64,000 nucleotides of DNA from Psilocybe cubensis (Eukaryota). Position numbers and translations under genes: made by a program. The stretch covers positions 2,232,001 to 2,296,000 of the forward strand of contig CM039004.1 of NCBI GenBank assembly GCA_017499595.2, read 5' to 3'. A model generated the notes under the pieces. That model saw nothing but the letters and a program-made list of their open reading frames with translations, did no database searches and was not told where the DNA came from. Shown one piece after another: positions 1,422 through 30,988 of this stretch (positions within the stretch are counted from its first letter, which is position 1; each line of letters opens with the position of its first letter).

Positions 1422-1469
1422 ACGCTATCACGTGGTACCAACCAGTCTTTGTTGAAGACGTCGATAATA

Positions 1470-4404: not shown

Positions 4405-4990
4405 TGCGAAGTCTGTATGATATTTTACATTACATTAAGTTATATCTTTCCATCCATCCATCCATTCTATCTTGTCTCTTTCTCAGGTTATCGATCGAAC
4501 ATACAGTTATAGGCACCCCTAATCTTTTGTTGTATAACACCGTAAATCAAAATCTTGGAACCATATTTCGTTCAAGCGCCTTTCCCGTGCATTGTACCAT
4601 ACTTCTTTTGATATACATTGTTGACATCATTTGATGTAGACTTATCATACTTGTGTGTATAAATTAAGGCATTAACTGTGATATATATCGGTTTTCTATC
4701 TATTTACGTTGCATAGGCATGTAGGTTTGTTTTTTTTTTTTTTTTCTTTTAATTTTCTGAGCAGACATAGAGGGGACACAAGTTCTAAAAATACAAATTG
4801 GCAGACAGGATACTAAAGCTACAGATGGAGGAGACTCAAGAGGCTGGTTATATCGATACAATGTCGAGAATGCTACACAACCCAAAGGAGGAATCCAAGG
4901 GTCGAAAGACGATGTGGTGGTATACAAGGAAATGATGGATCATGGAGGTTTGCGTGAAAGCGTTGTTGAAATCAAAGAGGTTACTGGCGC

Positions 4991-5379
4991 TCAGTGCTTG
5001 GAGACCCATGCACTCCAGAGACTCTCATAGCGTTTCTGGTGGCGAGAGCTGTACTCGATGTACTTGGAAAACGCCTTTTTGGGAAGCTCAAGTATGCCTT
5101 GGGAGGCGATGCGGCTGGCGTCCATGGGCGGGAGGACAGTCAAAAGATCGGAGGAGCAGATGCGCGCAATGGGGACCTCGGTGGGGAGGAAAACGCCCTC
5201 TCCGAAGGGTGTGTAAGTGCGGACCTCGAGATATTTCTCGCGTGTGGTGTGTGTGCGCGCAGCTATGAGCATAGAATAAGCTTGGTTGCTATTACGGATA
5301 GCATGCGCTGATAATTACCTTGAACGATCATGACTTGGTTCTTGACAAGAGCCACAGCGATGCTTCCGTCGGCGAACAT
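4991..5379 (-). CDS. Uncharacterised 110-aa protein (2 exons), copy in left repeat arm
   Basis: ATG 5379; exon 1 MFADGSIAVALVKNQVMIVQ, 56-nt GT-AG intron, exon 2 in frame to WVSKH*; TATATAA upstream. Confidence 0.75.
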
Positions 5380-6341
5380 GGTGGTGGTGTGGTGGATTAT
5401 GGGTATGTATGGGTATTATATAGCTCGTAAACGAGTATGAAAACTGCCGCTTTAAGTCTGTTGGAAAGAGTGACAAGAGACGGAGGCAATCAGAGGGCTT
5501 GGATTTGATCATAATCCACACAGTACCTTTATAGATTGCCAGGTTATTGTTTTCTCTCCGGAGAAGCATTGACAGATTCACTGAGCGAATATTGTAGAAC
5601 AAGGCACCTAGTGCCGGCCAGCTTCCGGAGATTGAACTAGTGGATATTTCGTGTTCCAGGTATCACCGGAGCGAGCGGACAAGGGAAAGGGCATGAGGTA
5701 GCGCGAACAAGGTAAGAAGCATAGTGGCGTGCCTTATTTAGATGAAGGCACAAAGTAGACTCTCTGTTTGGCTTGAAAGTCTACTTACAACGAACAAACA
5801 CTTTCCTCTCCTTGACTCTTACTGCATCTGTCATTACCTATGTTCTTGTACATTATCTTTCACTTTATGCACAGTCACTCTCCCATAGCTTTTCCCCCGC
5901 TTCAAGTCGACGCCCAATCTACAACTCCAAGATTCCTATCGGAAAAGACTCGGTTCTCAGGCATCCCCGATTCCTGTTCTTTCCTATTGTTCGACGATTG
6001 AACAATAAACGTTATACAATTAGGTCACTCGGTCTCTTCTGTTGTATCGGATTTCTTGCGCCTCTCTTGGATGCTTGCTTTGTATCAATACGAGTTGCAC
6101 CATCGTCGAATGAGCTCCAGCCCTTGGGTTATTTTCTCTTCCAGCATCTACGGCCTGTCAGTTACCGCCCCACTGTATTCCGTCTCACTCCACCCTGAAA
6201 CGTCAGCCAGTTATTTTGGCTTTTCGCTACCGAAGCAGCAATATGGATATGATTCATGATCTATGTATTATGTATAGCATACACGCTCTAGATCTTGAAT
6301 CCGTTTAACCTCAAGCTAACTTCCTCTCTCGACGGTACAAC

Positions 6342-7337
6342 ATGAAGACCTTCACTGAGATGCCGCCGTTTGTGATTTCCTTCATACAAAAACAGCATAT
6401 GTTCTGGGTGGCTACGGCGCCTCTTTCTGCAGATGGACATGTTAATCTTTCACCAAAAGGATTATCTGGTACTTTTCATATCAAAGATGAAAACACCGTT
6501 TGGTATGAAGATATGACTGGTAGTGGTATGTAAATTTGTCCTCGAATGTTTCGAGTCGCTCTAATTTGACCTTGGCGTAGGCGTCGAGACCATTGCACAC
6601 TTGAGAGAGAATGGACGGATGACTATTATGTTCTGCGCATTTGAAGGACCTCCTCAGATCGTGAGGCTACATGGACGCGGTAGGACTTCGTATCGTAAAC
6701 CGTGTTGAAAGCACTTTAATCAGCATTGTAGGCAAAGTTTACGAGTACGACTCGTCGGAATACAACAAACTTATTCCTCTGAACGAAAGGCAGCCGGGCT
6801 CACGGTCTGTCATCATGCTACACATACACAGAGTGGGGACGGTGAGTCGATTATGCTTGGGATTGGTGAAGTTACGTCATAAATCATTACACATAGTCCT
6901 GTGGATTCTCTGTTCCGTTCTACACCTTCAAAGGCGATCGCATGCGCCTTCATCAATATTGCGCCAAGTCAGAACGAGCAGATCTGGCAGCGGCTGACGC
7001 ATCTCAGCCAAGTTTGAATGGACTCGCGACATCATTCCCCGACGAGATTGCAGACAATGGCGTCAGGCGCTACTGGGCAGTTCTCAATAAAACCAGTATT
7101 GATGGTCTTCCTGGAATCCAGGACGCGCATAAATCGAAGACGCTCTTCGACCGCGATATTGCTAACAAAGAGTGGAAACAAGAAAGCCTCTCGCGCGCAG
7201 CACACCAGCAACATTCGCAGCATCAGACTCTCGGGGTGACAACCTGGGTAGACCCAAAACTTTTAGTTGTATTTGTGCTTGGTGCTTTGACTACTGGATT
7301 ATGGCGCAACATTATCGTGTCATTGTTCCAAAAGTAA
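6342..7337 (+). CDS. Pyridoxamine 5'-phosphate oxidase-family (FMN-binding split barrel) protein, copy A
   Basis: FWVATAPLS.DGHVNLSPKG, YEDMTGSGVETIAHLRENGRMTIMFCAFEGPP, SCGFSVP and SIDGLPG motifs; C-terminal hydrophobic segment; 3 introns. Confidence 0.88.
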
Positions 7338-7563
7338 ACCAATGATAAAATGGTAGAAGGCCCTTCAGCTCGGAAGCCGCGCACCGACGTGCACAGGCTG
7401 TTGAACGTGGCATCATTAAACACGACATCCTGCCACGTTCCTGATGCCGCCGGGCAGAAATGGCCTGATCGTCTCTAATTATCTAGTTCCCCTTTAAAAG
7501 AGACGAATTAAGCATTCGCACTGATTTCCCAACGACTCTCAAGTCTCAACTTGACGCGTTGAC

Positions 7564-8706
7564 ATGGTCTCCGATGCTTTTGCTCACAAGCCTTTAAAAA
7601 AACTCTATCTTTTCGATGTAGACAACACCTTAACTCCTGCACGTCACGTAGGTCGTTGATTCTTTGAACATCTTATCGTTCACCTTTGATCCATTCACAG
7701 CCTAGAAGTTTGACACCAGAGTTGCAACAAACATTGTGCGCCCTTCGGGAGAAGGTTGCGATTGGGTTCTTAGGAGGCTCGGATTTTACTAAAATTACCG
7801 AGCAACTTCAAACTGGTGATGAAGTCGGTGAGTGTAATTCGTGATGCATACTGTTGAACTTTGACTCAATGCTGATTTATAACGACTTTCCGTGGTACTC
7901 ATCAGTTCTAGATCAATTCGACTATGGATTCGCTGAGAATGGACTTATTGCGTACAAGCTTGGAAAGCAGCTTCCATCTCAATCCTTCATCGAATTCATT
8001 GGGGAAGAGCGCTACCAACTCATGGTGAACTTTATTCTTCACTATATCGCTGATCTCGATATCCCTATCAAGAGGTACGCTATGGAATTCCGTTAATTTG
8101 ATTGATCAACCTGACATGATATATATGTAGGGGCACTTTTGTAGAGTTCCGTCGTGGTATGATAAACGTCAGCCCTATTGGACGTAATGCATCGTACGTG
8201 ATGTTTCGAAAGAATTTTCAGCAGAACGGGTTTACCTTTCACTTAGCCTACAAGAACGGAAGGATTTCGAAATTCTTGACAATGTGAGCTCCATAACATC
8301 CATGTTTTGGTTTTGATGGCTGAATATTTATCGCAGAAGAAGGGCTATCGCAAAGCCATGATTGAAGCCTTGAAAACCAAGTTCCCTGATTATGGTCTGA
8401 CCTATTCAATCGGAGGACAGCTTTCTTTCGACATATTTCCCATCGGATGGGACAAGACATTTGCCCTCAGTCATGTCGAAGATGAGAATTTTGAAGAGAT
8501 TCATTTCTTTGGGGACAAGACACACAAGGCGAGTTTCGTTGGATTCTCTTCAGTTGCTCTTTCGGAAATTGATCATTTGTGCTTGTTGGAAGGGAGGGAA
8601 TGATCATGAGATTTATGTCGACCCGAGAACCATCGGACACCATGTAGAGAATCCTGAGGACACTCTCCGCATTTTGAAAGCATTGCTCGCCCAGAACACA
8701 GTATAA
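7564..8706 (+). CDS. SEC53: Phosphomannomutase paralogue A (HAD-IIB)
   Basis: [45 protein letters not shown] and HFFGDKT..GGNDHEI motifs; reading frame intact across exons; one GC-AG intron. Confidence 0.88.
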
Positions 8707-9295
8707 AACAACAGCTGATTGGAAATTTGAACGAGGGCTGACAATACCTAAATGCTATTGATGTAATGAAATTGTAGCCTGTTAAGAATTATGTATTAAG
8801 GTTGGGTGGGCCATCCTAGATGTTTTGAATTAACTAAGTTTCAATAGCAAATACTAGTAGTATGGACTCCGAGGAGACATAAAAGTTGTCGACATTATCG
8901 AAGTAGAGTAGAAAAGTATTACCAGTAGCAAATAGGTGATTGTTAATCCCCTGTGGCATTAAGTGACTGGTGACTGACGAGTGACTTGTCCAAAGAGGCC
9001 CAAACATCACGCTTGGTTGACTGCCAGGGCCAACCCATCAATATATTTAAATCAGTTGACCAAGGACACGCTCGCTTATTGCCACCCCCGTTCGCGTCAC
9101 TTTCTGCACTCCTTTTTGCGCCAGAACACGACATAGAGACGTGTATTGATCTCGTACGACGAACAGAAATGCCTTCTGAAACGTTATCACAAAGTAAAGA
9201 AAATCTACCATTGACACGGGCAAGGTGCGTAAAATATTACTATAGTAGCACTCGCGACGCGTCTCATCGAGCGCGACTTTAGAGGGGAAAACGAC

Positions 9296-12200
9296 ATGGA
9301 GACATTTCCAGTAGCTAAAAAACGTAAAATTGAGGCTACGAGCTCCTTTGCAAGTCAACTTCCCGCGTCACAACAAACTTCATTCGCCGAAATACTTGAA
9401 CGCTTGAAAGAAGAAGGCGCTGCGGGGTACATTGGTGTGTATTATATGGCACTCGCTCAGACCTAGTTTCTGAGAGAATGTAATTGTACAGGCTCCGAGG
9501 GTGGCGAGGGGGAATGGGCTAGACCTACCCTCCGTAATATAAATGAGAAGAAGGATTCAATAAGTATGAACCTATTGACATCTCACCTTGTGCCATACCT
9601 GACTACTACACACAGTTTTTCAGCAGATTGATATCGAAACTGCCTCAAACAGTGATGGGTCCGTCATACTACGGATGTTTGGAGTAACAGAGGTGTGTCA
9701 GATATCTATGTACTCTAGAGTGATGATTGAATTTGGATTATAGGAAGGCCACAGCGTTCTTGCGAGCATTACAAATTTCAAGCCATACTTCTACGTTCCT
9801 GCACCAAGGGGATTCACGTCAGACGATTTGGAACCATTCAAGAATTACTTGACTGTAAGATAGGGAGATGTGCTTCAACGCAGCATTCAAACTTAACGAA
9901 GGTGTTATCAGGGTCAACTCGAATCCGGAAGCCTGGTGATCAGCATTGAAACTGTCATGCAAAAAAGCTTGTGGGGATATCGCGGAGACGACCAAATTCC
10001 ATTTCTCAAGTTTACGCTATCAGATCCAAGAAGCGTACCGAAATTAAGAGATGAGTTCCACAAATTATCGTTGAGTGTGCAAATCCTGATTCCCCCTTAC
10101 GTCTCTTTGATAAAGGAGAATGCCAATATGAGGGTTTTTTCACTGAGCCCACTTTTACCTATGAGAGCAACATTGTATTCACACTACGATTCATGATTGA
10201 CACCAAGGTATGGACATGGTACTAGTACTCTGGAGTATCTTCCTTACATTTTGCAAACAGGTTGTTGGTATGAACTGGATTGAAGTTCCTGCCGGAAAGT
10301 ATCAAATTACACCTCCCTCAATGAAACGTTCATCATGTCAACTTGAAATCACTCTTCGGTAAGATATTACATATCTCTATCTATCCTGCCCAAATCTAAG
10401 CGTTGCCTGGCTTTCAGCTACGATGCTTTCATATCTCATGCTCCTGAAGATAGTTGGTCTAAGATTGCTCCCTTGAGAATCTTGAGCTTCGATATTGAAT
10501 GCGCTGGTCGGCAAGGAGTTTTTCCCGAAGCCAATGTAGACCCTGTAATCCAAATAGCTAATATGGTGACCCGGCAAGGTATGTTAATTGGTATTTTCAA
10601 TTACTACATATTTAGCATATATTGCAGGGGAATCAAAACCTTTCATTCGTAATGTCTTCACGCTCAAGGACTGCTCACATATCGTTGGATCTCAAGTGCT
10701 ATCTTACGAGGAAGAAGAAGACATGTTACAAGCTTGGAGGGATTTCGTAGAAGAGGTCGACCCTGATGTAGTTATTGGATACAATATCTCCAATTTCGAT
10801 TTCCCCTATTTGATCGACAGGGCCAAGGCTCTCAAATGCTTGAAATTCCCTTACCTTGGACGCATGAAAGGTCAGAAACATCTGAAAAGCCCCAAAAATA
10901 TTTATTGATCATAAATTTACAGGTGTCAAAACGGAAACGAAGTCGACCCACTTTTCTTCCAAGGCCTATGGTCAACGGGATTCCAAGGAAACACCTCTTG
11001 ATGGAAGGTTACAGCTCGATCTACTCCAATATATGCAAAGAGAACACAAGCTCCGCAGTTACACTCTTAACGCCGTATGTGCTCAATTTTTGGGCGAGCA
11101 GAAAGAGGACGTACACTATTCGGTTATTACTGAATTACAAAAAGGTTCGCCTGAATCGAGGCGTCGTTTGGCTGTTTATTGCTTAAAGGCGAGTGTAGTT
11201 CAATTCAACAAAATGAGCCACTAACACCCCCCAATAGGATGCATACCTTCCGCAGCGTTTACTCGACAAACTAATGTGCCTGGTCAACTATATTGAAATG
11301 TCCCGTGTTACTGGAGTTCCATTCAACTATTTACTTTCGCGTGGCCAATCGATCAAAGTTTTATCCCAGCTCTATCGAAAAGCAAACGCAGAAGGCTACT
11401 TGGTACCTGCTGGAAAGGGAGAAGGTTGTGATTGTCTTTCTTTTGTTTGATGCCTTGTTAAGTCATTGTTCTAGGTACCGACGAACAGTACGAAGGAGCA
11501 ACTGTTATTGAACCCAAGAAGGGTTACTACGACGTCCCGATCGCTACTCTAGATTTTGCCTCTCTATATCCCTCCATCATGATGGCTCACAATTTGTGCT
11601 ACACTACTCTTCTTGAGAAAGCAACCATCGATCGACTTGGGCTACAGAAAGATGTTGATTACATTCAAACCCCTAATAATGGTATGTTTTAACATTTCTG
11701 CAATGTTTTTACATAGTGCTAATATGATTCTAGACTTGTTCGCCACTTCTTCACGACGGAAGGGGTTGCTTCCTACGATCTTGGAGGATTTAATCTCCGC
11801 AAGAAAGCGCGCTAAAGCAGATTTAAAGAAAGAGACAGATCCTTTCAAAAAGGCCGTCTTAGATGGTCGACAGTTGGCATTGAAGGTGCGATCTTTTGCA
11901 ATTAAAGGCCTTGCTTTGTTTGTTCATCTCATGATTTTAGATCAGTGCTAATTCTGTGTATGGTTTCACTGGAGCAACAATAGGAAAATTACCTTGTTTG
12001 GCTATTTCATCGAGTGTCACGGCATATGGTCGTCAAATGATCGAAAAGACAAAACAAGTTAGCGTCTTCATGTTGGCATTTTTTCAACTCGACTGACTTT
12101 TTTCATCAATAAAGGAAGTTGAATCGGAATACAGCATAGCCAATGGCCATAGTCATGATGCCGAAGTAATCTATGGTGATACCGATTCTGTCATGGTCCG

Positions 12201-13660
12201 ATTTGGGCCTACCGATCTGGCGACAGTCATGGACTTGGGTGGGTTTCGAAAGGTTGATACATAACCGGCCCATTTATCTTAATATTTTTATCAGGTCGCG
12301 AGGCTGCGAAGCTTGTCACCCAAAAGTTCATCAGACCGATCAATCTTGAATTTGAGAAAGTTTATTATCCCTACTTGCTTATCAGCAAGAAGCGTTATGC
12401 CGGCCTTTACTGGACAAAAACAGAGAAATATGACAAAATGGATGCAAAGGGTATTGAGGTAAGGGCTCTTTGTATTAGAGCCATGCATTCTTAGTGATTT
12501 TTCTAGACTGTGCGTCGAGATAATTGTCGCTTAGTGTCAACGGTCATCGAAACATGTCTCCATAAAATGTTGATCGACAGAGATGTTAAAGGAGCGGAAG
12601 AGTTAGTAAATATTTCTTCTCAAAACACCATGTTGAGTTGACTATTTACTTGAAGGTATACGAAACGTACAATTTCCGACTTGTTGCAAAACAAAGTCGA
12701 TATGTCACAACTTGTCATCACAAAGGCGCTTTCTAAAACTGGTGCGTTCCGGTCTTGCGTTTCCAAAATCACAACTTTTAACATGAATACTACAGATTAC
12801 GTTGGTAAACAGGCTCACGTAGAGCTGGCGGAGAGGATGAAGCAGCGCGACGCAGGTTTGTTTAGCCACTCATAATCGAGGCCACTGATATTCATTTGAA
12901 CATCTCTTCAAAGGTTCTGCTCCCACTCTCGGTGATCGGGTTGCCTATGTTATCATCAAGGGTATCAAAGGAGCGGCAGCATATGAAAAGTCAGAGGATC
13001 CGATATATGTTCTAGATAACAACATACCCATCGACACCAAATACTACCTCGAAAATCAACTGTCAAAGCCACTCCTTCGTATCTTCGAGCCCATCTTGGG
13101 TGAAAAGGCATCCTCATTATGTCAGTGATTGCTTTGAGCTTCCTTCCTTGATCTGATGGCATTTCGTTGCAGTGTCCGGTGACCATACACGTACAATCCA
13201 GATCGCCACCCCTACGGTCGGTGGTTTGATGAAATTTGCCGTAAAAACTGTCACTTGCCTTGGTTGCAAAACGCCCTTACGAGGCAAGGAAGCTAGTAAG
13301 ACGCGACTGATCAATTGAGTTATTTTATATCATTAACTTTTGATGGCACAGACGGTGCTCTATGCAAAAACTGTAAACCTAGAATGCAAGAATTTTATTA
13401 CAAGCAAGTCATGGCGGCATCAGAGCTTCAAGTGCGCTATTCAAGATTATGGACGCAATGTCAGCGTTGTCAGGGTTCCTTACATCAGGTATGTAAATTT
13501 GCTGTCTCATCCACTCCGTCGTTCGCTCACCAATTACATTATTCAGGATGTCCTCTGTACCAGTAAAGACTGCCCTATTTTTTACATGCGGAAAAAGGCC
13601 CAAAAGGACGTGGAGGATGCGAACGCGGTTCTCGACCGCTTTGATGGTACCGATTGGTGA
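9296..13660 (+). CDS. POL3: DNA polymerase delta catalytic subunit, many exons
   Basis: [37 protein letters not shown] and YGDTDS motifs, C-terminal CysA/CysB ([23 protein letters not shown]); MCB box ACGCGT at 9257. Confidence 0.97.
10051..10100 (+). other. Non-canonical AT-AC intron in POL3
   Basis: Removing ATGAGT...CCTTAC joins PKLR-G to LFDKGECQY and restores the frame to [15 protein letters not shown]. Confidence 0.75.
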
Positions 13661-13818
13661 TTTTTGTGACTCATTTACCTTGCTGTACGATTATACTCTC
13701 TTGCTTTCGACCTTCTGTTTTGTATTTTTGTAGCTTAATCATTGTTAAAACAAAAGACGCTGTCATGGATTTTATCCAAATATCCTCAATGTTTCTTCTG
13801 CGTGGAGCGTCAGTGTTA

Positions 13819-14564
13819 TCAACCGGACTGGCTTTGTTTTGCCTCTATAATCCATGGGCTGACGTATCCTCGTGCTAAAAGATCTTGTAGCGAAAGGTAT
13901 TTTGCACCTTGGATGGTACCAAGGCAAGTCTGTGGATAGTTCCAGCAACCGGCAGATAGCAATATATATACGAAAAATACTTACTGGAGCACGGCATTCA
14001 CAGGTGAATGGTTGTGACATCTCCCACTCTGTGCTTGGATAGAAGAAAGTCACTGTCGAAAAGAAAGTGAGTGACCTGCAGGAAATACTTGTTACAGTTG
14101 ATCACTAACAATGGTCTCCTGCGTCGATTTTCTTCAAAGCTTTGAGATGCCATTTGGCTCGATCGCTGGCGGAAAGGTCGAAGGCAACATTGGGCTCGCA
14201 GGAGTGGTTCACTTGAGTAAATATGGATGTCACTTTGTAAGTTGGTTGGGATAAATTTATTTTCAGCTTGCGTACCGTAGAGGAGGTCACTGTTCAGTTC
14301 AATATGGTCATTTGGACCGTTACCGCATTGCACGGATGAATAGGCTTTGACTCCCTTGGATATACCCGTCAGTAAAGCGAGAGTCTCGCCTGCTTGGAAC
14401 GACTTCGCTAGTAGTGGTTAGGGACAGTTCAAAATATAATACTAATAGGTAAATCGTCGCACCTTCAAGCTTTTAAGTGAAGATCTATATTCTCCAGGCA
14501 CAAACTCCACGAGGAAGCTTCCGGGATGCGTAGGCACATATGTGTTAGGGGTGGCGGCTCCCAT
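13819..14564 (-). CDS. Small stand-alone SET/post-SET domain protein
   Basis: VNHSCEPNV, LTFFYPSTEW, PFTCEC and CLGTIQGA motifs across 5 exons. Confidence 0.85.
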
Positions 14565-14984: not shown

Positions 14985-15069
14985 ATTCCACGTTAATGGA
15001 GGTTCAAGGCTTGGAACTTCTGGTGGTGTTAATTCCACGGTAAAGGAGGTTCGGGGCTTGGAACTTCTG
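14985..15069. repeat. Imperfect 38-bp direct repeat (period 47)
   Basis: attccacgttaatggaggttcaaggcttggaacttctg versus attccacggtaaaggaggttcggggcttggaacttctg. Confidence 0.8.
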
Positions 15070-15073
15070 CTAT

Positions 15074-20187: not shown

Positions 20188-23058
20188 ATGTGGAACGCGT
20201 TAGATGTTCCTGACAGCCCCGCGGAACCATTCACAGACTACAATCGGTGGAGGCTGCTTGTGAACGATGGGGGTCGCCATACATGGCATTACCTCCGCAC
20301 TGACGAGGAAGTTGAGCGGTGGCCGCAGAATGAAGTCGACAGATTCTGGCTAGGTCTCAAGACCGTGCGTAAACCTATCTTTCCATATACATGGATATAC
20401 GCTCATTCTTCCGTTATATAGAGTATGCCGGACTTACCCCCTGCAAAAGATGCTCTTGACGCTGCCCGGAACGGATACAAGTTCTACAAACATCTGCAAT
20501 CTCATGATGGGCACTGGGCAGGCGAATACGGTGGCCCTATGTTTATTCTTCCTGGACTTGTCTTTGGAACGTACGTTACTGGAATGAGCTTCAAGTTGGA
20601 GGAACGACTGGAGATGGCTCGTTACATCATGAACCGCGCCCATCCAGAAGATGGCGGGTGGGGAATGTAAGTCTTAATTTTAGAATTATGTTTGTTTAAG
20701 ATCTGACTGGAGATACGCGTCCCTAGGCACGTTGAAGGACATTCAACTGTGTTTGGCACGGCTTTAAACTACGCGGCGCTTCGTATTTTAGGGGTCGACA
20801 AAGACCACCCTGTTTGTGTTCGCGCTCGGGCAAAGTTGCACCAACTTGGTAAGACTCAAGTTAATTCCTGTGAGTTAATGACTCTTATATGCGTTCAGGT
20901 GGTGCGACGTCTATCCCTGCTTGGGGAAAGTTTTGGCTTTCGATTCTTAATTGTTATGATTGGGCCGGAAATAATCCTGTTCCACCAGAGTTGTGGTATG
21001 TCAGTGCTTATTCCAAAGTCTATATATCTTAACTTGGTACGTAGGCTACTTCCTGACTGGGTTCCTTTCCATCCCCACAAATGGTGGATCCACGTCCGTA
21101 CTGTTTACGTGCCGATGAGCTATCTTTATGGTGTCAAATACAAAATGGAAGAGAACGATCTCATCCTTTCACTCCGAGAGGTATATATTTGCAATCCAAA
21201 TATTGAGTATGACTGTAATTTATGCCCCGCCAGGAACTATATACACAAAACTACTATACCATTGATTGGCCGGCTCAGCGGAACAATGTTCATGAAGTCG
21301 ATATGTACGCCCCCCACACCGCTCTCTTTGACATGATCAACGTTGTTCTTTCCTCTTATGAGAGCTGCATCCTCCCACCCCTCCGTCGCGCAGGCTGTGA
21401 TGCCGCCTACCGTCTCATTGTAATGGAAGACGAAAACACTGGTTACCAAACTCTTGCCCCTATATCCAAGATGTTCAACCTCATCGCCCGCGCACATGTT
21501 GAAGGCCCAGAAAGTACCGCATATAAAATGCATGCTATCAGGAGGGCAGACTTCATGTGGGTTGGCGCAGACGGAATGATGATGACTGGTACGAATGGAA
21601 GTCAGGTGTGGGATACAGGATTCATTGCACAGGCATTGGTGGAGACTGGGTTAGCGAATGAAGAAGAGAATAAGGAGAGCTTGATTAAGGCGCTTGGATG
21701 GATTGATCAAGCACAAATTCAGCATAACCCAAAACATTACAAGGAAGCATATCGACATAGGACGAAGGGCGCTTGGGGTTTCAGGTTTGCCTTTTCACAT
21801 TTAATGTTATTTTCGACGCACTAAATACTAACTTATAATCCAAACTAGTACGACTGAACAGGGATACTCTGTCAGCGATTGTACGGGAGAGGGTCTGAAG
21901 GCAGCATTGTACATGCAGTTCAACCTTGAGTAAGTATGTCTGAAATGTATTCTCTCTCAAATGATCTCATTATATTCGTGAAGCTTTACACCCAAACTAA
22001 TATCAAAACAACGCCTTTGCGATGCCGTTGATATGATGCTCACTCTCCAGAATCCAGATGGTGGCTTCGCCAGCTATGAGTTGATTAGAGGTCCTGCATG
22101 GTTGGAATGGTTGAATCCTGCAGAAGTCTTCGGTTGGTCCTTTCTGAATCATTGACTTACAAAGTATGCTCACTCTTCTGGGATCTCTAGGTAATATTAT
22201 GATCGAGTATAACTACCCTGAATGCACAACATCCGTAATCACAGCCCTCGCTATCTTCCGCAAACACTTCCCAGATTACCGAAAGGATGATATTCAGTGA
22301 GTATTATTTACATCCTTTCTAGTTCTGAGGTTGTTGAATGTTATGATGCTTTTAGGCGGACTATCGACGGTGCAATCATGTTTTTGCACAAGGCACAGAC
22401 CCCCGAAGGCGGCTGGGTCGGCTCCTGGGGTATCTGCTTCACATACGCTTGCCAATTCGCACTAGAGAGTTTGTCGCTCGTTGGAGAAACATACGAAACT
22501 AGTGAATACTCGCGTAAGGCTTGCGAGTTCTTGCTGAGCCATCAAAGAGAAGACGGTGGGTGGGGCGAGAGCTACAAGGTAAGTTATATTTTCAAATGTT
22601 CTGCTCCTTGTTCTGATATATGTATATTTCTCTGCGGATGTAGTCATGTGAATCTAGTACTTGGGTGGAACACGAGAACACACAGAGTGTACAGACTTGT
22701 TGGGCCGTTCTAGCTCTCATGTACGCCAAGTACCCTCACCCTGAGCCCATTGAAAAGGCCGTCAAACTAGTTATGTCGCGTCAGAAACCCGTAAGCCTTT
22801 TCGGTCAGGACATTCATGATTTAATCTCATTTTCTCGTTTGTTTGATGATGTAGGATGGATCGTGGCCGCAGGAAGCCATCGAAGGTGTATTTAACAAGA
22901 CATGCGCGATTGCCTATCCAAATTTCAAGTTCTCTTTCGCTATTTGGATGCTGGGCAAGGCCCACTATTATTTGCAGGATCTCAAAGCTAAGAAGCTAGC
23001 TAATGCGAAATTGAATGGGGTCAATGGCAACGGCAAGGCCAATGGCCACCATTACTAG
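20188..23058 (+). CDS. ERG7: Oxidosqualene cyclase (lanosterol synthase)
   Basis: [29 protein letters not shown], catalytic VSDCTGEG and QW repeats ([17 protein letters not shown]). Confidence 0.95.
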
Positions 23059-23667
23059 TAAAAGTATACCATCTATCTAATCCATGTTTTTTGTTATAAG
23101 TAGTAGTACTAGTTGGACTTTTTTTTAAATATTTTTAGTTATGTAATGGAATGTTACTTTTCGTTTGCTTGCCCGGTGGAAAAAGAGGTAATCACACCGT
23201 CTTCATGGTCGCTTTGTTCTGAGACGTGGAACCAACATCTTTTTCTTCCTTATATTCGTACAATTTTACAGTCTTGTAAGCTTTTTTCGATCCAATTGTC
23301 TGCCTTCTGAGGAAAGGAGTCGGGAATTCCTTTTGATCACATTTGTGAGCAGGTAGTGCCAGTCGATATCAACCGACGGTCGTGTCCTGGATAAAATATA
23401 ACATCCCACTCATTTGAGGAACAAGGTCGCTGGCGGAGAAAAAGTTGGCAGAAGCAGCTCCTTTGTTTCTAACTAATTTATACATATTAAAGTCAGCAGG
23501 CGTGAATTGTCGGAGCAAGGCTAGTGTATAAAGAAGGCTCATATGTGCCATCCTCTGTTGATTGCTTTGACCAAAGGTTATATACGTGAAATTGCCGCTA
23601 CACATTGTATCTTTATAAGTACTATGGTTGGCTGTCATATTCATTGTTTTATGTTACATTGTTGCAC

Positions 23668-25820
23668 TCAAACTGAATGGAGTTGTTCCATATTGATAAC
23701 CTGTCTAAAGATCTCCAATGCAGCTTGCGGTTGGAAGGCCGGCTGCGAATGATATGTTGTATGAGAAAAGTTATCGCAATCAATAAAAAAGCCCACAAAC
23801 CACTTCATGTCCGGCTTGGAAGACTCTCCTGATGTTCACCAAAATAAAATTGAACAAGTTAAAGGAGATGGAAATCATCAGACTGAAACTTACGCGAAGG
23901 AGAAGTTATCCACATTTTGAATGGCTGCCACAGGTACTCCGTTGATTGTCATGTTTGTGAATGGTGTTGCTGCGAGGCGCCCTGCGCCATACCAATCCAT
24001 CGCAAGGGCAGATGCATGACCACCTAGCCAGTTGCAACTTTTCTATGTGATTAGACGACATTCATCTGTACTCGAATGTCACTAACTTAATATCAGCATC
24101 TCCCGCCTAGAGCAAGTTGTAAGCATGTATTTGGGCGAGAAAGACACAAAGAACTGTTGACATACCCAAAGGAGGATCTTGAGGGTAGAATTAGCCAGGG
24201 CACCCAACTGTGGGAGCAACGTCCTTGCATCCTAAATAAATAGCCCTTCGTCAGTGTTTTACTACGATTTGCTATTTCATAGCGCAACATACGTCTCCAG
24301 TTGTAGAGAATAAATTAAATGGTGCATTGGCACATTCGTGATAGGTGCTCTCCGCGCCAATCTTTGCTTTCACTGTTGGTGATTTCAAGAAATTGAGATA
24401 GAATTCAGGAGGAAAGGGATTCGGAGAAGATGCATTTTGACGGAGGTCGTCCGAATCTCGATTACCCACAGCGGGAGAAAATACATTTTCCACCTGTTTC
24501 GACATTGTCAGAACTCATGACAAAGACCTTGAAAGAAGGAAGGGAGAAGAAGGTACGTACACAAAAGTTGTCTGCTTTTTTGCATATAGCATCGGAATCC
24601 GGACCTGTACCAGCCGCATAACAAGCTTCTTCCTGGTCTTTACAACCTCCTGGTTCAAAGTATGACTGGTTTAGTTTGGCAAGCACATTGTCGGGTTGCA
24701 ATTGTCCATATCCAGGAGCATTGAATGCGAAATCGACGTAGGCTTTATTTTGAATGAGAGGATCGTACCATCCACTGAATCATAATTTGTTAGAACACGT
24801 ACACTCACACCAACCATTTTGGAACATACTTGTTGATCATAAGTGCGCTGATGGTCACAAGCTCTCCTTTCAAAGCTCCCGCTTTAATAAGCGCGTTCTG
24901 TTGATCAAAGAATGTCACCATAGCAGGGCCGTAGTGGCCACCATAACTTTCTGTTGCAAAAATGAATCTTATGGGAAACAATTGAACATAAAAAGGATAT
25001 CAAAAAGTGGGTCAACAGACTAGCTACTCACTCTCTTGATTGGTATTTCGCGAACTCATTACTCTCAAAGAGTACCTGGAATGCTTGCCACACAAAAGGC
25101 GATGCTGCAAGTGTACTGTTTACTGTATCGGTGCCAAAAGAGAAACCGGTGCCAATAGGCTGGTCGATGTAAATCACTGCCATCAAGAATAAGCATTTTC
25201 AGAAAGGTGGTATTCCAATGAACTTACTATTGCTGATGTTATTCCAACTGATGTAGAAATAAAGAAATTTCAATCATTCGAGGTTGATGAATTTTTAACC
25301 TTGACGATTACCTGAAGGGATTCAATACCGTTGTTGCGCCGTCGGGATTGACCTGACAAGGACCGTTCTCTTGGAAAAGGCCAATCATGGAAGAGCACCC
25401 AGGTCCACCATTTAGCCTTCAGTTCATGGGATCAATTAAATCACTATGCGTGTGTGTGCGTTTCATATTCACCAAAGTGTAAACGGCGCAGTTTCAGGAC
25501 TTTCTCGAGATTCGAAGAACCAAAACCACTGCAATCAAAATTATGTCAGACAAAGCATTACTTTCAGGGAGCATTTCATTTACCATCGACATATTCGTTC
25601 CAACGTCAATATATCCGGACATTTGATGGACACCGGGGGTTGTTTCGCAGACGCCCGAGTCGGAGACAAATCGCAGTGATACATCTGGGTTGTTAACTGA
25701 AGCGAACCTAGTGAATATGGCTTTCTGTTCGACATCCAGAACTGGAGTTGCTTGAACGAAGGAAGCCAGAGCAACCAAGACACTGATAACCCGTATACAC
25801 GCGATCCCGAATTGACCCAT
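23668..25820 (-). CDS. Secreted serine carboxypeptidase (peptidase S10)
   Basis: Signal peptide, [40 protein letters not shown], catalytic [15 protein letters not shown] and AGHEV motifs. Confidence 0.92.
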
Positions 25821-26463
25821 AATGGTGTAGACAAGGTGAAATGCGAATTTCTGCTTAAGTGGGCAGAATCGCTGACCTTTATGTCATTTACTATCTATAA
25901 TATATATGCACAACTGCAAAAGATCGACCTTCGTCGCATAAACCACATGGGTTTGATAAGTAATGCTGCCCTACCAATCCTTTACGCGATTATTTTGAAT
26001 ATTTGACGTCCTATTTATATGTTCCAGGCAATTCGACCGCGCCGCCATGAGAAAATGGGTAGTCCTGTGTTCCGGTAAAGGGCATGAGATACTATGATGA
26101 CCTTATCCGAAGCTTGCTAAGCGTGTACACCGAGGCTATGAAGAGAAGACCATGCGGCTTTCGAAGGGTGATCTGCGAAACAAATGTGTATACATAGCTC
26201 TGTGAACGGCCTTGAAGAGATAAGAAAACGTGTAGTTCTTAAACAGCCTTGATATCAGTGCGTACGAGTGAACCAAAGACCAGATATGCGATGACCCGCA
26301 CATGCCCATGATAAAAGAGTATTTTCTTTGGCGTCATGTCTAGAAACAATCTGGAGACACTCGGTACAAACATACGGTGCCAAAATAGTACAACTAGAAG
26401 CAAGGTCAGTGAACGATTAGTCACTAGATAAATGTTGAGGATTTACACACCTCGTACATTTAA

Positions 26464-27489
26464 CTAGACCATTATTCTTCCCGACCCTTTAGTAAGACTA
26501 TTCCAAAGCACGCTGACAGCCACACCCAGCGCAACGCCCGATAAAAGCTTTGGGTCTATCCAATTCGTGATATAGGGCATCAATTTAGCTCGTAACGCGT
26601 CCATGAACGTGTTTTGTTGTTTCCATTCCTTGGATGAAATTCGCCGATCAAACGTAGTACCGGACTTATAAGCCGTCTGAATTCCTGGTAAGCCATCGAT
26701 GCTCTCCTTGTTTCTGACAAGCCAATAGTTTTTGACTCCATTCTCAGTGACAGGGTATCGCGGCTGTTCGCCTTTGCTATCATCCTGGTCTTCCCCAATC
26801 TTCGTAGCATTGACTTCAGCCTCAATATCTGCCATTTCCTTGTTTGCGAAAAACTGATGCAGTCTCATACGTTCCGCTTTGAAGGAGTAGAAGGGAATTG
26901 AATACCCGCAGGACTAGATAATAATTATTCGTGCGTTTTCAAAATAAGGTGACATATGATTTACTTACAGTTCCCACTCTGTGGATATCCAATACAATGA
27001 CTGAGCGGGACCCCGGCTGCCGTTTATCCAATGGTACAAGTTCATTGTACTCCGGGGTATCAAACTCAAAGACTTTTCCTGGGACGACAGTCAAGGATGG
27101 ACGAATCAATAGGTGAATTCTGCTCTTACCATGTCCGAACAGCCTGACTATCTGAGGTGGTCCTTCAAACGCACAGAACATAATGGTCATTCTTCCATTT
27201 TCTCTCAAATGTGAAACAGTCTCTATTCCTGAGGTAGATAAGTACAAGCCAAATTAAGATACATTGTAAGTACAAGGAAAGCTAGGAGTACGGATGACGT
27301 ACCACTGCCAGTCATATCTTCATACCAAACTGTCTTCTGGTCAACGATGTGAAAAGTCCCTGCAAAGCCTTTGGGAGAGACATTGACGTGACCAGTTTTG
27401 GAGAGAGGAGCCGTAGCAACCCAAAACATGCGCTGTTTCTGTATCCATGGAACAACAAATGCAGGAATCTCGTCGAAGGTCTTTCCCAT
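26464..27489 (-). CDS. Pyridoxamine 5'-phosphate oxidase-family protein, diverged paralogue B
   Basis: Same motifs and intron positions as copy A (FWVATAPLS..GHVNVSPKG, LRENGRMTIMFCAFEGPP, SIDGLPG). Confidence 0.88.
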
Positions 27490-28185
27490 GTTGTTCACGT
27501 ATCGCTAAACGTAGCCGCGGTGGTGAAGGTTGAATACAAGAACAAACGTATAGTACGTTTATAGACGCTCGAAGAACAATCTGAGTCATTTGTTCGAGTG
27601 AGATTTGAATCATATGCCCATTTGCTTGTTGACTGGAGGTCTTGTCACCTGAACCCTTCTTTACTCCGTTATCGGAGAAGAAACCCGATTTTCAGACTCA
27701 AACCTGCGACAGATGCATTTTCACTGTTTTTTTTTATGATTTGACGTGATTAAAAAATCGAGAACAAGAAAAAGTCCCAGAGAGGTCGAGTCAATACAGT
27801 GGTTGAGTTAGGGACTGTTAAGGATGAGTTGGAGGGCTAAGCTGGAGTGATGCGTCGCGTGATCGCACGACAGTGTGACCGATCGCGTTGGATTGATGGA
27901 TTTGATGGACACTTTGAAGACGCGACGCAAACAGATTGAATGGATTATTATAAATTATATGCGACGCAAACGTCTGAAGCATAAATTTTATGGGGTCTGC
28001 CTTGAGTCGCGCACAAGCTACAAGATAGTATTGCAAAAATGATTTTCTATCATACATTTAGAAAATATGTGACCTTAAACAGTACTTAAACAGTACTGTT
28101 GCATTCATTTCAAGCGGGGGTAAGCTGAGTGCGCGTTGGTGCGCGTCTTCCGATCTGAAGGGTCTTCTAAAATTTTACCATTGGT

Positions 28186-29181
28186 TTACTTTTGGAACAA
28201 TGACGCGATAATGTTGCGCCATAATCCAGTAGTCAAAGCACCAAGCACAAGTGCAACAAAAAGTTTTGGGTCTACCCAGGTTGTCACCCCGAGAGTCTGA
28301 TGCTGCGAATGTTGCTGGTGTGCTGCGCGCGAGAGGCTTTCTTGTTTCCACTCTTTGTTAGCAATATCGCGGTCGAAGAGCGTCTTCGATTTATGTGCAT
28401 CCTGGATTCCAGGAAGACCATCAATACTGGTTTTATTGAGAACTGCCCAGTAGCGCCTGACGCCATTGTCTGCAATCTCGTCGGGGAATGATGTCGCGAG
28501 TCCATTCAAACTTGGCTGAGATGCGTCAGCCGCTGCCAGATCTGCTCGTTCTGACTTGGCGCAATATTGATGAAGGCGCATGCGATCGCCTTTGAAGGTG
28601 TAGAACGGAACAGAGAATCCACAGGACTATGTGTAATGATTTATGACGTAACTTCACCAATCCCAAGCATAATCGACTCACCGTCCCCACTCTGTGTATG
28701 TGTAGCATGATGACAGACCGTGAGCCCGGCTGCCTTTCGTTCAGAGGAATAAGTTTGTTGTATTCCGACGAGTCGTACTCGTAAACTTTGCCTACAATGC
28801 TGATTAAAGTGCTTTCAACACGGTTTACGATACGAAGTCCTACCGCGTCCATGTAGCCTCACGATCTGAGGAGGTCCTTCAAATGCGCAGAACATAATAG
28901 TCATCCGTCCATTCTCTCTCAAGTGTGCAATGGTCTCGACGCCTACGCCAAGGTCAAATTAGAGCGACTCGAAACATTCGAGGACAAATTTACATACCAC
29001 TACCAGTCATATCTTCATACCAAACGGTGTTTTCATCTTTGATATGAAAAGTACCAGATAATCCTTTTGGTGAAAGATTAACATGTCCATCTGCAGAAAG
29101 AGGCGCCGTAGCCACCCAGAACATATGCTGTTTTTGTATGAAGGAAATCACAAACGGCGGCATCTCAGTGAAGGTCTTCAT
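28186..29181 (-). CDS. Pyridoxamine 5'-phosphate oxidase-family protein, copy A' (in right arm)
   Basis: Identical to 6342-7337 except a few C-terminal residues (LFVALVL versus LLVVFVL; IIAS versus IIVS). Confidence 0.88.
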
Positions 29182-30183
29182 GTTGTACCGTCGAGAGAGG
29201 AAGTTAGCTTGAGGTTAAACGGATTCAAGATCTAGAGCGTGTATGCTATACATAATACATAGATCATGAATCATATCCATATTGCTGCTTCGGTAGCGAA
29301 AAGCCAAAATAACTGGCTGACGTTTCAGGGTGGAGTGAGACGGAATACAGTGGGGCGGTAACTGACAGGCCGTAGATGCTGGAAGAGAAAATAACCCAAG
29401 GGCTGGAGCTCATTCGACGATGGTGCAACTCGTATTGATACAAAGCAAGCATCCAAGAGAGGCGCAAGAAATCCGATACAACAGAAGAGACCGAGTGACC
29501 TAATTGTATAACGTTTATTGTTCAATCGTCGAACAATAGGAAAGAACAGGAATCGGGGATGCCTGAGAACCGAGTCTTTTCCGATAGGAATCTTGGAGTT
29601 GTAGATTGGGCGTCGACTTGAAGCGGGGGAAAAGCTATGGGAGAGTGACTGTGCATAAAGTGAAAGATAATGTACAAGAACATAGGTAATGACAGATGCA
29701 GTAAGAGTCAAGGAGAGGAAAGTGTTTGTTCGTTGTAAGTAGACTTTCAAGCCAAACAGAGAGTCTACTTTGTGCCTTCATCTAAATAAGGCACGCCACT
29801 ATGCTTCTTACCTTGTTCGCGCTACCTCATGCCCTTTCCCTTGTCCGCTCGCTCCGGTGATACCTGGAACACGAAATATCCACTAGTTCAATCTCCGGAA
29901 GCTGGCCGGCACTAGGTGCCTTGTTCTACAATATTCGCTCAGTGAATCTGTCAATGCTTCTCCGGAGAGAAAACAATAACCTGGCAATCTATAAAGGTAC
30001 TGTGTGGATTATGATCAAATCCATAGCGCTTTTGCTTTTCCACCTTCGAGGCCTTCAATCGCAAGCCCTCTGATTGCCTCCGTCTCTTGTCACTCTTTCC
30101 AACAGACTTAAAGCGGCAGTTTTCATACTCGTTTACGAGCTATATAATACCCATACATACCCATAATCCACCACACCACCACC

Positions 30184-30572
30184 ATGTTCGCCGACGGAAG
30201 CATCGCTGTGGCTCTTGTCAAGAACCAAGTCATGATCGTTCAAGGTAATTATCAGCGCATGCTATCCGTAATAGCAACCAAGCTTATTCTATGCTCATAG
30301 CTGCGCGCACACACACCACACGCGAGAAATATCTCGAGGTCCGCACTTACACACCCTTCGGAGAGGGCGTTTTCCTCCCCACCGAGGTCCCCATTGCGCG
30401 CATCTGCTCCTCCGATCTTTTGACTGTCCTCCCGCCCATGGACGCCAGCCGCATCGCCTCCCAAGGCATGCTTGAGCTTCCCAAAAAGGCGTTTTCCAAG
30501 TACATCGAGTACAGCTCTCGCCACCAGAAACGCTATGAGAGTCTCTGGAGTGCATGGGTCTCCAAGCACTGA
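30184..30572 (+). CDS. Uncharacterised 110-aa protein (2 exons), copy in right repeat arm
   Basis: ATG 30184, intron 30245-30300, stop 30570-30572; TATATAA at 30141; one residue differs (QGM versus QGI). Confidence 0.75.
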
Positions 30573-30988
30573 GTGCCAGTAACCTCTTCGATTTCAACAA
30601 CGCTTTCACGCAAACCTCCATGATCCATCATTTCCTTGGATACCACCACATCGTCTTTCGACCCTTGGATTCCTCCTTTGGGTTGTGTAGCATTCTCGAC
30701 ATTGTATCGATATGACCAGCCTCTTGAGTCTCCTCCATCTGTAGCTTTAGTATCTTGTCTGCCTATTTGTATTTTTAGAACTTGTATCCCCTCTATGTCT
30801 GCTTAGAAAACCAAAGGAAAAAAACAAACCTACATGCCTATGCGAAGTAAATAGACAGAAACCCGATATATATCACAGTTAATAATTCAGTACCGCGAGA
30901 GATTCGTAACACGTATCAATCACCGGAGAGGTATTTGCATTTGAAATTGGGTTTAGGTATTGAATGCTACAAATCCACTTCATGTTTT

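What the first reader, a model, noticed from the sequence alone, without database searches (positions are those of the whole stretch)
4671..30883. 2.7-kb gene-containing inverted repeat flanking a 20.7-kb block: candidate flip-flop invertible segment
Seen: 4671-7394 and 28129-30883 are reverse complements. Each carries a 110-aa gene and a PNPOx-family gene on a divergent promoter, with no transposase or TIR/TSD signs. The enclosed 7395-28128 holds PMM-A, POL3, a SET gene, RPL30, the two putative ncRNAs, ARP9, ERG7, a carboxypeptidase and PNPOx-B. Knowledge: recombination between kb-scale inverted repeats inverts the spacer, as in flip-flop mating-type switching in Ogataea and Komagataella, whose repeats and spacers also carry ordinary genes. 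No mating-type gene or recombinase is visible here. Inference: the block may exist in both orientations; a one-off inversion with staggered-break duplication, or an assembly artefact, are alternatives.
Basis: partly seen in the sequence, partly recalled or inferred. Interest (0 to 1): 0.8.

Follow-up and report, generated by a model that had tools for sequence, protein, structure and literature searches.

The report
Gene-bearing inverted repeat marking an old inversion
Two near-identical 2.7-kb gene-carrying copies in opposite orientation bracket a 20.7-kb block of housekeeping genes in a Psilocybe cubensis chromosome; they look like the scar of an old inversion whose two copies still exchange sequence, not a proven genetic switch.

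Summary
It is not an assembly artefact. Four independent public runs show about twice the depth over the arm, and reads carry both sets of flanks.

Each arm holds a conserved 110-aa gene (X) and a 277-aa PNPOx-family gene.

All 30 mismatches lie at the arm edges, and 2,030 nt of core are identical. Strains differ in which arm-specific letters both arms carry. This points to gene conversion between the arms that continued after the strains diverged.

Eleven contigs from related fungi each carry one X. It lies ERG7-X-BRN1(reversed) in some and ERG7-X-other genes in one group. In the window, X_L keeps the BRN1 side and X_R keeps the ERG7 side, and BRN1 and ERG7 have the opposite relative orientation. 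So the block was inverted at least once, with X+PNPOx duplicated at the breakpoints.

No mating-type gene, recombinase or transposon was found. Whether both orientations exist today could not be tested, because short reads and k-mer contigs cannot bridge the identical core. A programmed flip-flop is unsupported; occasional toggling remains possible.

The parts
4671..7394 (.). Left arm (L) of the inverted repeat
   Evidence: about 2x depth in 4 runs
28129..30883 (.). Right arm (R), reverse complement of L
   Evidence: its flanks are seen as loose read ends in X11/X12
5094..7123 (.). Mismatch-free core of the arms (L coordinates), 2,030 nt, interrupted only by the indel at 5500
   Evidence: 0 of 200,000 permutations gave a mismatch-free run this long
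30024..30063 (.). About 38-40 nt present in arm R but missing from arm L at 5500. The 2x-depth contigs of X6 and X9 carry it, and so do many reads of X11/X12
7395..28128 (.). 20,734-nt spacer. Holds PMM-A, POL3, RPL30, ARP9, ERG7, S10 carboxypeptidase and PNPOx-B. Inverted relative to related fungi
   Evidence: Pfam; synteny
4991..5379 (-). Gene X, left copy (110 aa, 2 exons, no Pfam domain; conserved in Agaricales)
   Evidence: P0002, 100%
30184..30572 (+). Gene X, right copy (1 aa different from the left copy, I77M)
   Evidence: P0139, 100%
6342..7337 (+). PNPOx-family gene, left copy (277 aa, 4 exons)
28186..29181 (-). PNPOx-family gene, right copy (4 aa differences in the last exon)
26464..27483 (-). 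PNPOx-B, a diverged paralogue (45-71% aa identity), in tandem with the right-arm PNPOx copy
   Evidence: (D1/I3)
7555..8700 (+). PMM-A (phosphomannomutase), about 160 nt inside the inner edge of arm L
30989..32097 (-). PMM-B; its stop lies about 106 nt outside the outer edge of arm R. Matching exon order and layout with PMM-A (7 paired HSPs)
1395..4455 (+). BRN1/condensin subunit 2 (approximate limits), convergent with the left copy of X as in relatives
20167..23058 (+). ERG7 (oxidosqualene cyclase). In relatives it lies 0.9-3.5 kb from X on the same strand

Best explanation
The repeat is the footprint of a historical inversion in the lineage of Psilocybe cubensis. The species name comes from names attached to identical proteins.

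Inferred ancestral order: BRN1 -> <- X, PNPOx ->, PNPOx-B ->, carboxypeptidase, <- ERG7, ARP9 ... POL3, <- PMM-A, <- PMM-B. The segment from X to PMM-A was turned round. The 2.7 kb holding X and PNPOx ended up at both ends in opposite orientation.

This happened either in one step or in two. The one-step route is staggered breaks around X+PNPOx, fill-in and end joining, as in the Drosophila model of Ranz et al. 2007. The two-step route is an inverted duplication followed by one crossover between the copies. I favour the one-step route about 60:40, on parsimony only.

Since then the arms have kept exchanging sequence by gene conversion. This keeps the core identical, keeps both gene pairs intact, and leaves only the edges diverged.

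The structure is a passive substrate for homologous recombination, not a programmed switch. A crossover in the core would flip the spacer without breaking a gene. I take today's orientation to be essentially fixed, because no evidence for the other one exists.

Shown: two copies; edge-only divergence; strain-to-strain differences in arm homogenisation; opposite BRN1-ERG7 orientation in relatives.
Inferred: the mechanism of origin; ancestral adjacency of PMM-A and PMM-B; fixation of the present orientation.
For: (1) Two real copies. Depth is about 2x over the arm in 4 of 4 runs laid, and R-arm flanks appear as loose ends.

(2) Conversion signature. All 30 mismatches lie in 4692-5093 and 7124-7390. 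Divergence is 8.0% in 4671-4808 and 11.7% in 7318-7394, against 0 of 2,030 nt in the core. 0 of 200,000 permutations reach such a mismatch-free run.

(3) Strain comparison.
- X6: one 2x-depth contig spans 4809-7317 and carries R-type letters at all 10 diagnostic sites (4849-5093, 7124-7272).
- X9: both arms carry a mosaic. Sites 4799, 4808, 4924, 4974 and 4989 are R-type; 4849, 5093 and 7124-7272 are L-type.
- X9 also has three private variants at full 2x depth (6624, 6654, 6660), and four variants in one arm only (6531-6591).
- Arm-specific letters at the extreme edges are shared between X6 and the window (contigs 1, 3 and 4 of X6). So the duplication predates the divergence of these strains.

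(4) Synteny. 11 related metagenome loci each carry one X.
- ERG7 lies 0.9-3.5 kb upstream on the same strand in 6 loci (L003, L005, L006, L007, L008, L010).
- BRN1 is convergent about 0.4-0.5 kb downstream in L001, L011, L006 and L010. In L008 this rests on one weak HSP.
- On L006 and L010, ERG7 and BRN1 have the opposite relative orientation to the window.
- In the window, X_L keeps the BRN1 junction and X_R keeps the ERG7 side.

(5) Undoing the inversion makes both old paralogue pairs tandem: PNPOx with PNPOx-B, and PMM-B head-to-tail with PMM-A. Two PMM paralogues lie on one contig in Galerina, Hypholoma, Coprinopsis marcescibilis, Calocera viscosa, C. cornea, Abortiporus and Artomyces, judging by equal contig lengths.

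(6) X looks single-copy elsewhere. There is one protein per named relative, and one P. cyanescens X on a 120.7-kb contig.

(7) Ranz et al. 2007 (PMC1885836; abstract and passages read) report inverted duplications of genes at 17 of 29 Drosophila inversions and give the staggered-break model.
Against: The second breakpoint (PMM-B next to PMM-A in ancestors) was not seen directly. Only same-contig linkage and close protein numbers in other species support it.

Strong evidence for ERG7 and BRN1 together on one contig comes from one group of related contigs (L006/L010, 84-93% identical). L008 is weak for BRN1.

One group of five loci (L002-L005, L009) has X joined not to BRN1 but to the genes found at window 36.9-45.3 kb. 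So ancestral order is not uniform among relatives, and their phylogeny is unknown.

None of the relatives has PNPOx or the carboxypeptidase between ERG7 and X. The immediate ancestor's gene order is therefore extrapolated.

The 2.7-kb duplication is longer than any in the Drosophila set (at most about 1.9 kb).

'Both arms identical' in X6 and X9 is read from k-mer contigs at 2x depth, not from phased reads.

The roughly 50% variants in the core of X11/X12 (5936-6885) could be haplotype differences or arm differences.

Fixation of the present orientation is assumed, not shown.
Confidence: 0.6

Rival explanations
1. Recurrent, unprogrammed toggling. Crossovers between the arms flip the 20.7-kb block from time to time, so both orientations segregate among P. 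cubensis strains or nuclei. The model is the human inversions mediated by inverted repeats.
For: Inter-arm recombination continued after the strains diverged. The 2-kb identical core is ample homology. A flip breaks no gene, because the arms contain whole genes. The block has been inverted at least once. A second lineage (L002-L005, L009) has an independent rearrangement using the same X|BRN1 interval. Human IR-mediated inversions show high recurrence (PMC3961182; title and abstract start seen in the listing).
Against: No observation of the alternative orientation exists. The named P. cubensis annotation gives the same gene order as the window, but its proteins are letter-identical to the window and so are not independent. 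Gene conversion without crossover is enough to explain the homogenisation.
Confidence: 0.28
2. Programmed flip-flop switch, as in mating-type switching of Ogataea and Komagataella. Regulated inversion would change the expression of genes at the arm ends.
For: The geometry resembles the yeast case (abstract of PMC4238957: two MAT loci about 18 kb apart, inversion induced by nutrient limitation). Here 2.7-kb repeats bracket 20.7 kb.
Against: None of the 54 window ORF pieces scanned hit a homeodomain, HMG/alpha-box, pheromone-receptor, recombinase or transposase family. The genes next to the arms are BRN1, two PMM genes and PNPOx-B. The surroundings are ordinary housekeeping genes with even composition and no sign of centromeric or telomeric repeats. 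The duplicated genes are identical on both sides, so a flip would exchange nothing but the neighbours.
Confidence: 0.03
3. Duplicative insertion without any inversion. X+PNPOx at the right end is original, and an inverted copy was pasted between BRN1 and PMM-A.
For: X_R lies in tandem context with PNPOx-B and on the ERG7 side as in relatives. One group of relatives (L003-L005, L009) has ERG7-X followed by the genes of window 36.9-45 kb, collinear with the right side of the window.
Against: The insertion would have had to recreate by chance the convergent X-BRN1 junction found in L001, L011, L006 and L010. BRN1 and ERG7 would also still be in the opposite relative orientation to L006/L010.
Confidence: 0.06
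4. Assembly artefact: a single-copy segment placed twice.
For: None found.
Against: About 2x depth in 4 of 4 runs from at least 3 studies. Both pairs of arm-flank junctions are present in reads or contigs. Arm-specific edge variants appear at about half depth.
Confidence: 0.01

Closest known systems
Inverted duplications at inversion breakpoints (staggered-break model; Ranz et al. 2007, PMC1885836; abstract and passages read)
   Same: Ancestrally single-copy, non-repetitive gene sequence is present in inverted orientation at both ends of a segment that is inverted relative to outgroups. Only one of the two breakpoints is duplicated. No transposon lies at the breakpoints.
   Different: The duplication is 2.7 kb (the Drosophila maximum is about 1.9 kb). 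It holds two complete, intact genes with their shared promoter. The copies are about 99% identical with an identical core, whereas the Drosophila duplicates average about 88% and are often decayed. Here the copies are kept alike by gene conversion.
Polymorphic and recurrent inversions mediated by inverted repeats (human IR-mediated inversions, PMC3961182; FLNA-EMD on Xq28, bioRxiv 10.1101/2020.04.20.051185; both seen only as listing and abstract start)
   Same: Kilobase-scale, high-identity inverted repeats flank a block of ordinary genes. The arms evolve in concert. The repeat is a passive substrate for homologous recombination.
   Different: Both orientations are documented in humans. Here only one orientation has been seen. 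The organism is a basidiomycete mushroom, and the repeat is much shorter than most human examples.
Flip-flop mating-type switching in Ogataea (Hansenula) polymorpha (Maekawa and Kaneko 2014, PMC4238957; abstract read); Komagataella is recalled, not read
   Same: Inverted repeats flank a roughly 18-20-kb region that contains ordinary genes. Inversion occurs by recombination between the repeats, with no dedicated site-specific recombinase needed.
   Different: No MAT genes lie at the ends, there is no evidence of a silencing position, no induced inversion is known, and the phylum is different. Membership is not supported.
Palindrome and inverted-repeat arms kept identical by arm-to-arm gene conversion (primate X/Y palindromes, PMC8327919, listing only; plastid inverted repeats, recalled)
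   Same: Near-identity of the arms is maintained by conversion, and both gene copies are preserved.
   Different: Scale, genomic setting, and the 20.7-kb single-copy spacer full of essential genes.

Membership tests
Yeast flip-flop mating-type switch (Ogataea/Komagataella type) | Pair of inverted repeats flanking an invertible chromosomal segment | tested here: met
   2.7-kb arms, 20,734-nt spacer
Yeast flip-flop mating-type switch (Ogataea/Komagataella type) | Mating-type genes at both ends of the segment, next to the repeats | tested here: not met
   The genes at the arm ends are BRN1, PMM-A, PNPOx-B and PMM-B. None of the 54 window ORF pieces scanned hit a MAT-type family. Not every ORF was scanned.
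Yeast flip-flop mating-type switch (Ogataea/Komagataella type) | One end lies in silencing chromatin (centromere or telomere), so that position decides expression | not testable with these tools
   The window shows only housekeeping genes and no repeat arrays. The chromosome position is unknown because no genome is held.
Yeast flip-flop mating-type switch (Ogataea/Komagataella type) | Both orientations present in one strain; inversion induced by starvation | not testable with these tools
   Only short reads and k-mer contigs were available. Neither can bridge the 2-kb identical core, and a flip creates no new short junction.
Inversion with inverted duplication at the breakpoints (staggered-break type) | The duplicated sequence is single-copy and non-repetitive in outgroups | tested here: met
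   One X on each of 11 of 11 related loci. One X protein per named relative. One P. cyanescens X on a 120.7-kb contig. No other copies in the window.
Inversion with inverted duplication at the breakpoints (staggered-break type) | The segment between the copies is inverted relative to outgroups, and each copy keeps one ancestral neighbour | tested here: met
   L006 and L010 have ERG7(same)-X-BRN1(opposite). L008 is the same but weak for BRN1. L001 and L011 have X-BRN1. L003, L005 and L007 have ERG7-X.
Inversion with inverted duplication at the breakpoints (staggered-break type) | The second breakpoint is contiguous in outgroups (PMM-B next to PMM-A) | tested here: inconclusive
   Only indirect evidence: two PMM paralogues on the same contig in 7 species, and Galerina protein numbers 5 apart. 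In Panaeolus cyanescens, X and a PMM are 11 locus tags apart. No sequence context could be fetched.
Inversion with inverted duplication at the breakpoints (staggered-break type) | No transposon or dispersed repeat at the breakpoints | tested here: met
   Sharp arm ends without terminal repeats. No other repeat families in the window. No transposase hits in the ORF pieces scanned.
Recurrent inversions mediated by inverted repeats (NAHR type) | High-identity inverted repeats with evidence of arm-to-arm exchange | tested here: met
   edge-only divergence; X6 and X9 are homogenised differently from the window
Recurrent inversions mediated by inverted repeats (NAHR type) | Both orientations segregate, or inversion recurs on the phylogeny | not testable with these tools
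   Orientation cannot be read. An independent rearrangement at the X|BRN1 interval in L002-L005 and L009 is suggestive only.

The most novel reading that the evidence does not exclude
The 20.7-kb block is a naturally toggling inversion. Crossovers in the 2-kb identical core flip it recurrently, so both orientations segregate among strains or nuclei of P. cubensis. The BRN1|X interval would then be a reused breakpoint, since a second lineage (L002-L005, L009) rearranged there independently. This would be a tractable fungal model of IR-mediated recurrent inversion and concerted evolution.
Probability: 0.25. Interest if true: 0.55.

Novelty: new member of a known kind. Interest (0 to 1): 0.35.

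Why it matters
This case ties three things together in one locus of a mushroom-forming fungus: an inverted duplication, a dated-by-synteny inversion, and arm-to-arm gene conversion since strain divergence. It shows that the breakpoint-duplication mode of inversion described in Drosophila also operates in Agaricales. It also shows that such duplicates can persist as intact gene pairs through conversion.

In practice, the repeat will break or misorient short-read assemblies. Any strain heterozygous for orientation would have suppressed recombination over about 10 essential genes.

It is not evidence for a new switching system.

Tried and rejected
**Searches that returned nothing**
- The whole genome of the window is not held.
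- A metagenome scan with the PNPOx protein P0001 matched 191 patterns, but none encoded a relative.
- Five look-ups of earlier findings of this scan returned nothing.

**Searches that did not settle the question**
- The records behind L004, L008 and L010 could not be searched for PMM. The second breakpoint stays untested.
- Pfam on 6 ORFs in the ERG7-X gap of L010 and on 4 window pieces gave nothing.
- The PMM homologue search returned 120 of 4,294 hits without genomic context. Two top hits (P0016, P0017) appeared to be double-PMM proteins from apparently distant organisms, and P0100 is a PMM fused to unrelated sequence. None is informative for Agaricales gene order.
- Named P. cubensis proteins reproduce the window's gene order, but they are letter-identical to the window. 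I therefore rejected them as independent evidence of orientation.

**Literature**
- Search 'Psilocybe cubensis' + inversion + 'genome assembly' found 5 papers. I opened one, and its only 'inversion' is a tube-mixing step.
- Search 'inverted repeat' + 'gene conversion' + inversion + basidiomycete found 25 papers, 15 listed. None is about this locus, judging by title and abstract.
- I did not find this repeat described in those searches.

**Idea considered and dropped**
- Using edge SNPs to read orientation. Outer SNPs stay with the outer flank and inner SNPs stay with the inner flank after a flip, so they carry no orientation signal without spanning the core.

Full report
**1.

The repeat finder reports two collinear inverted pairs (5500-7394/28129-30023 at 99%; 4735-5508/30055-30828 at 98%). 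blastn and a global alignment join them into one repeat, 4671-7394 against 28129-30883, with a 20,734-nt spacer.

The arms differ by 30 mismatches, a 9-nt gap (4730-4738) and about 38-40 nt present only in the right arm (30024-30063, opposite 5500). The ends are sharp and carry no terminal repeats.

**2. It is not an assembly artefact**

Twelve public runs were offered for window 2001-12000, and nine hold most of its words. I laid four on window 2001-10000: two raw Illumina runs (X11, X12) and two contig sets (X6, X9).

| Run | Flank depth | Depth over 4671-7340 |
|---|---|---|
| X11 | about 30 | about 68 |
| X12 | about 34 | about 71 |
| X6 | 13.5 | 25.3 |
| X9 | 86 | 152 |

Loose read ends at 4671 and 7394 are the flanks of the right arm (30884-30913 and 28099-28128). 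X6 has separate contigs for the L-inner and R-inner junctions.

**3. Gene content**

Names on identical database proteins place the window in Psilocybe cubensis.

- Each arm carries gene X: 110 aa, two exons, no Pfam domain, 61-76% identical in Flammula, Gymnopilus, Agrocybe, Panaeolus and Pholiota.
- Each arm also carries a divergently oriented 277-aa PNPOx-family gene of four exons.
- The two X copies differ by one residue. The two PNPOx copies differ by four residues in the last exon. All four genes are intact.
- Inside the spacer next to the right arm lies PNPOx-B, a 45-71% identical paralogue in tandem with the arm copy.
- PMM-A lies just inside the left arm and PMM-B just outside the right arm. 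Both show the same seven paired coding segments in the same order.
- Pfam on ORF pieces confirmed BRN1, POL3, RPL30, an actin-related protein, ERG7 and (more weakly) an S10 carboxypeptidase.
- SET and the two ncRNAs were not confirmed.
- The rest of the window is housekeeping: VLRF1/ankyrin, TRAUB, PX, Tim17, IML1/DEPDC5, GNAT, SAC3.
- No mating-type, recombinase or transposase family appeared in the 54 window pieces scanned.

**4. The arms exchange sequence**

All 30 mismatches lie in 4692-5093 and 7124-7390. Divergence is 8.0% in the outermost 138 nt and 11.7% in the innermost 77 nt, and it falls to 0 of 2,030 nt in the core. No permutation out of 200,000 produced a mismatch-free run that long; the longest was 1,271 nt. 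A single recent duplication would scatter differences evenly, so this gradient is the expected mark of gene conversion.

The strain data agree:

- **X6.** One 2x-depth contig runs 4809-7317 and has the right-arm letter at all ten diagnostic sites between 4849-5093 and 7124-7272. At the extreme edges it has the same arm-specific letters as the window.
- **X9.** Both arms share a mosaic of L- and R-type letters. They also share three private variants (6624, 6654, 6660) at full depth. They differ from each other at four sites (6531-6591) where the window's arms are identical.
- **The 38-nt segment.** It is missing from the window's left arm but sits in the 2x contigs of X6 and X9.
- **X11 and X12.** These runs are heterozygous in the flanks. 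They show diagnostic sites at intermediate and mutually different fractions, for example 13% against 43% at 7124.

So conversion has run in both directions since these strains diverged, while the duplication itself is older than their divergence.

Caveats:
- Identity of the arms in X6 and X9 is inferred from k-mer contigs. These did keep 50:50 bubbles elsewhere.
- The roughly 50% core variants of X11/X12 may be differences between haplotypes or between arms.

**5. The block has been inverted in evolution**

A metagenome scan with an alignment of X proteins returned 11 loci. By nucleotide similarity they fall into four groups. Every locus has one X.

| Neighbour of X | Loci | Detail |
|---|---|---|
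| ERG7 upstream, same strand | L003, L005, L006, L007, L008, L010 | 0.9-3.5 kb away; L008 also has ARP9 |
| BRN1 downstream, convergent | L001, L011, L006, L010 | 0.4-0.5 kb away; L008 shows it with one weak HSP (seen, not) |

On L006 and L010, ERG7 and BRN1 have the opposite relative orientation to the window. In the window the left X keeps the BRN1 junction. The right X keeps the ERG7 side, with the carboxypeptidase, PNPOx-B and PNPOx in between. The two ancestral neighbours of a single X are now 26 kb apart, each with its own X in opposite orientation. That is what an inversion with duplication of the breakpoint sequence produces.

Undoing the inversion also puts PNPOx next to PNPOx-B, and PMM-B head-to-tail with PMM-A. 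Two PMM paralogues share a contig in seven other species, which is compatible with this but proves nothing about adjacency.

One P. cyanescens X on a 120.7-kb contig suggests that the duplication is younger than that split. This evidence is weak.

**6. A complication**

Five loci of one group (L002-L005, L009; 95-98% alike) have ERG7-X followed not by BRN1 but by genes collinear with window 36.9-45.3 kb. That is the neighbourhood to the right of the right arm, minus PMM-B and two further genes.

I read this as an independent rearrangement that reused the X|BRN1 interval. Shared ancestry followed by gene loss cannot be excluded. It does not remove the need for an inversion in the P. cubensis lineage, because the convergent X-BRN1 junction is found in three other groups.

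**7. Mechanism and comparison**

The closest described kind is the inversion-coupled inverted duplication of Drosophila. [quoted passage not shown] This case differs in three ways: its size (2.7 kb against at most 1.9 kb), its two intact genes, and its maintenance at about 99% identity by conversion.

In behaviour it resembles inverted segmental duplications that mediate recurrent human inversions (listings only).

It shares geometry with the Ogataea flip-flop. It fails the tested defining feature, MAT genes at the ends. The other defining features could not be tested.

**8. What remains open**

Present-day orientation is the main gap. A flip by crossover in the core leaves all short junctions unchanged. 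Neither 151-nt reads nor k-mer contigs bridge 2 kb of identity, so says nothing for or against the alternative orientation.

The named annotation has the window's gene order but is sequence-identical to the window.

My odds:

| Reading | Odds |
|---|---|
| Essentially fixed historical inversion with continuing conversion | 0.6 |
| Unprogrammed toggling or polymorphism | 0.28 |
| Duplicative insertion without inversion | 0.06 |
| Programmed switch | 0.03 |
| Assembly artefact | 0.01 |

Noticed in passing
window 8944-8946: Runs X11 and X12 show clipped reads on either side of this point. Their 30-nt consensus ends are exact reverse complements of each other. This points to a heterozygous insertion with terminal inverted repeats (a transposon-like element) between PMM-A and POL3. 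It is absent from the window, and its end sequence is not found elsewhere in the window.
   Followed up: partly
L002-L005 and L009, against window 36892-45286: In one group of related fungi, X is followed within 0.6 kb by genes collinear with window 36.9-45.3 kb instead of BRN1. This is an independent rearrangement that uses the same X|BRN1 interval, so a possible case of breakpoint reuse.
   Followed up: partly
window 23100-29181, against L003, L005-L008, L010: Relatives have only 0.9-3.5 kb between ERG7 and X, with no carboxypeptidase or PNPOx similarity. The three genes between ERG7 and X_R in the window therefore look like a lineage-specific gain.
   Followed up: partly
window 26467-29181 (minus strand): A named public protein of 543 aa (P0136) is a fusion of the right-arm PNPOx copy with PNPOx-B, which is probably a gene-model error. 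The left copy is annotated separately, as 258 aa in one source and 277 aa in another.
   Followed up: yes
window 5500 / 30024-30063: The left arm of the window lacks about 38 nt that the right arm has. The collapsed 2x contigs of X6 and X9 also carry it. It is either a strain-private deletion after the last conversion or an assembly slip in the window.
   Followed up: partly
window 4991-5379 and 30184-30572: Gene X encodes a 110-aa protein with 22 invariant residues among 14 homologues and no Pfam family. The named hits were all Agaricales. Its function is unknown.
   Followed up: partly
window 7555-8700 and 30989-32097: Two phosphomannomutase paralogues occur in many Agaricomycetes and in Calocera, often on one contig. 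This points to an old linked duplication.
   Followed up: no
RPL30 lies at about 15920-16350 on the plus strand.
   Followed up: partly
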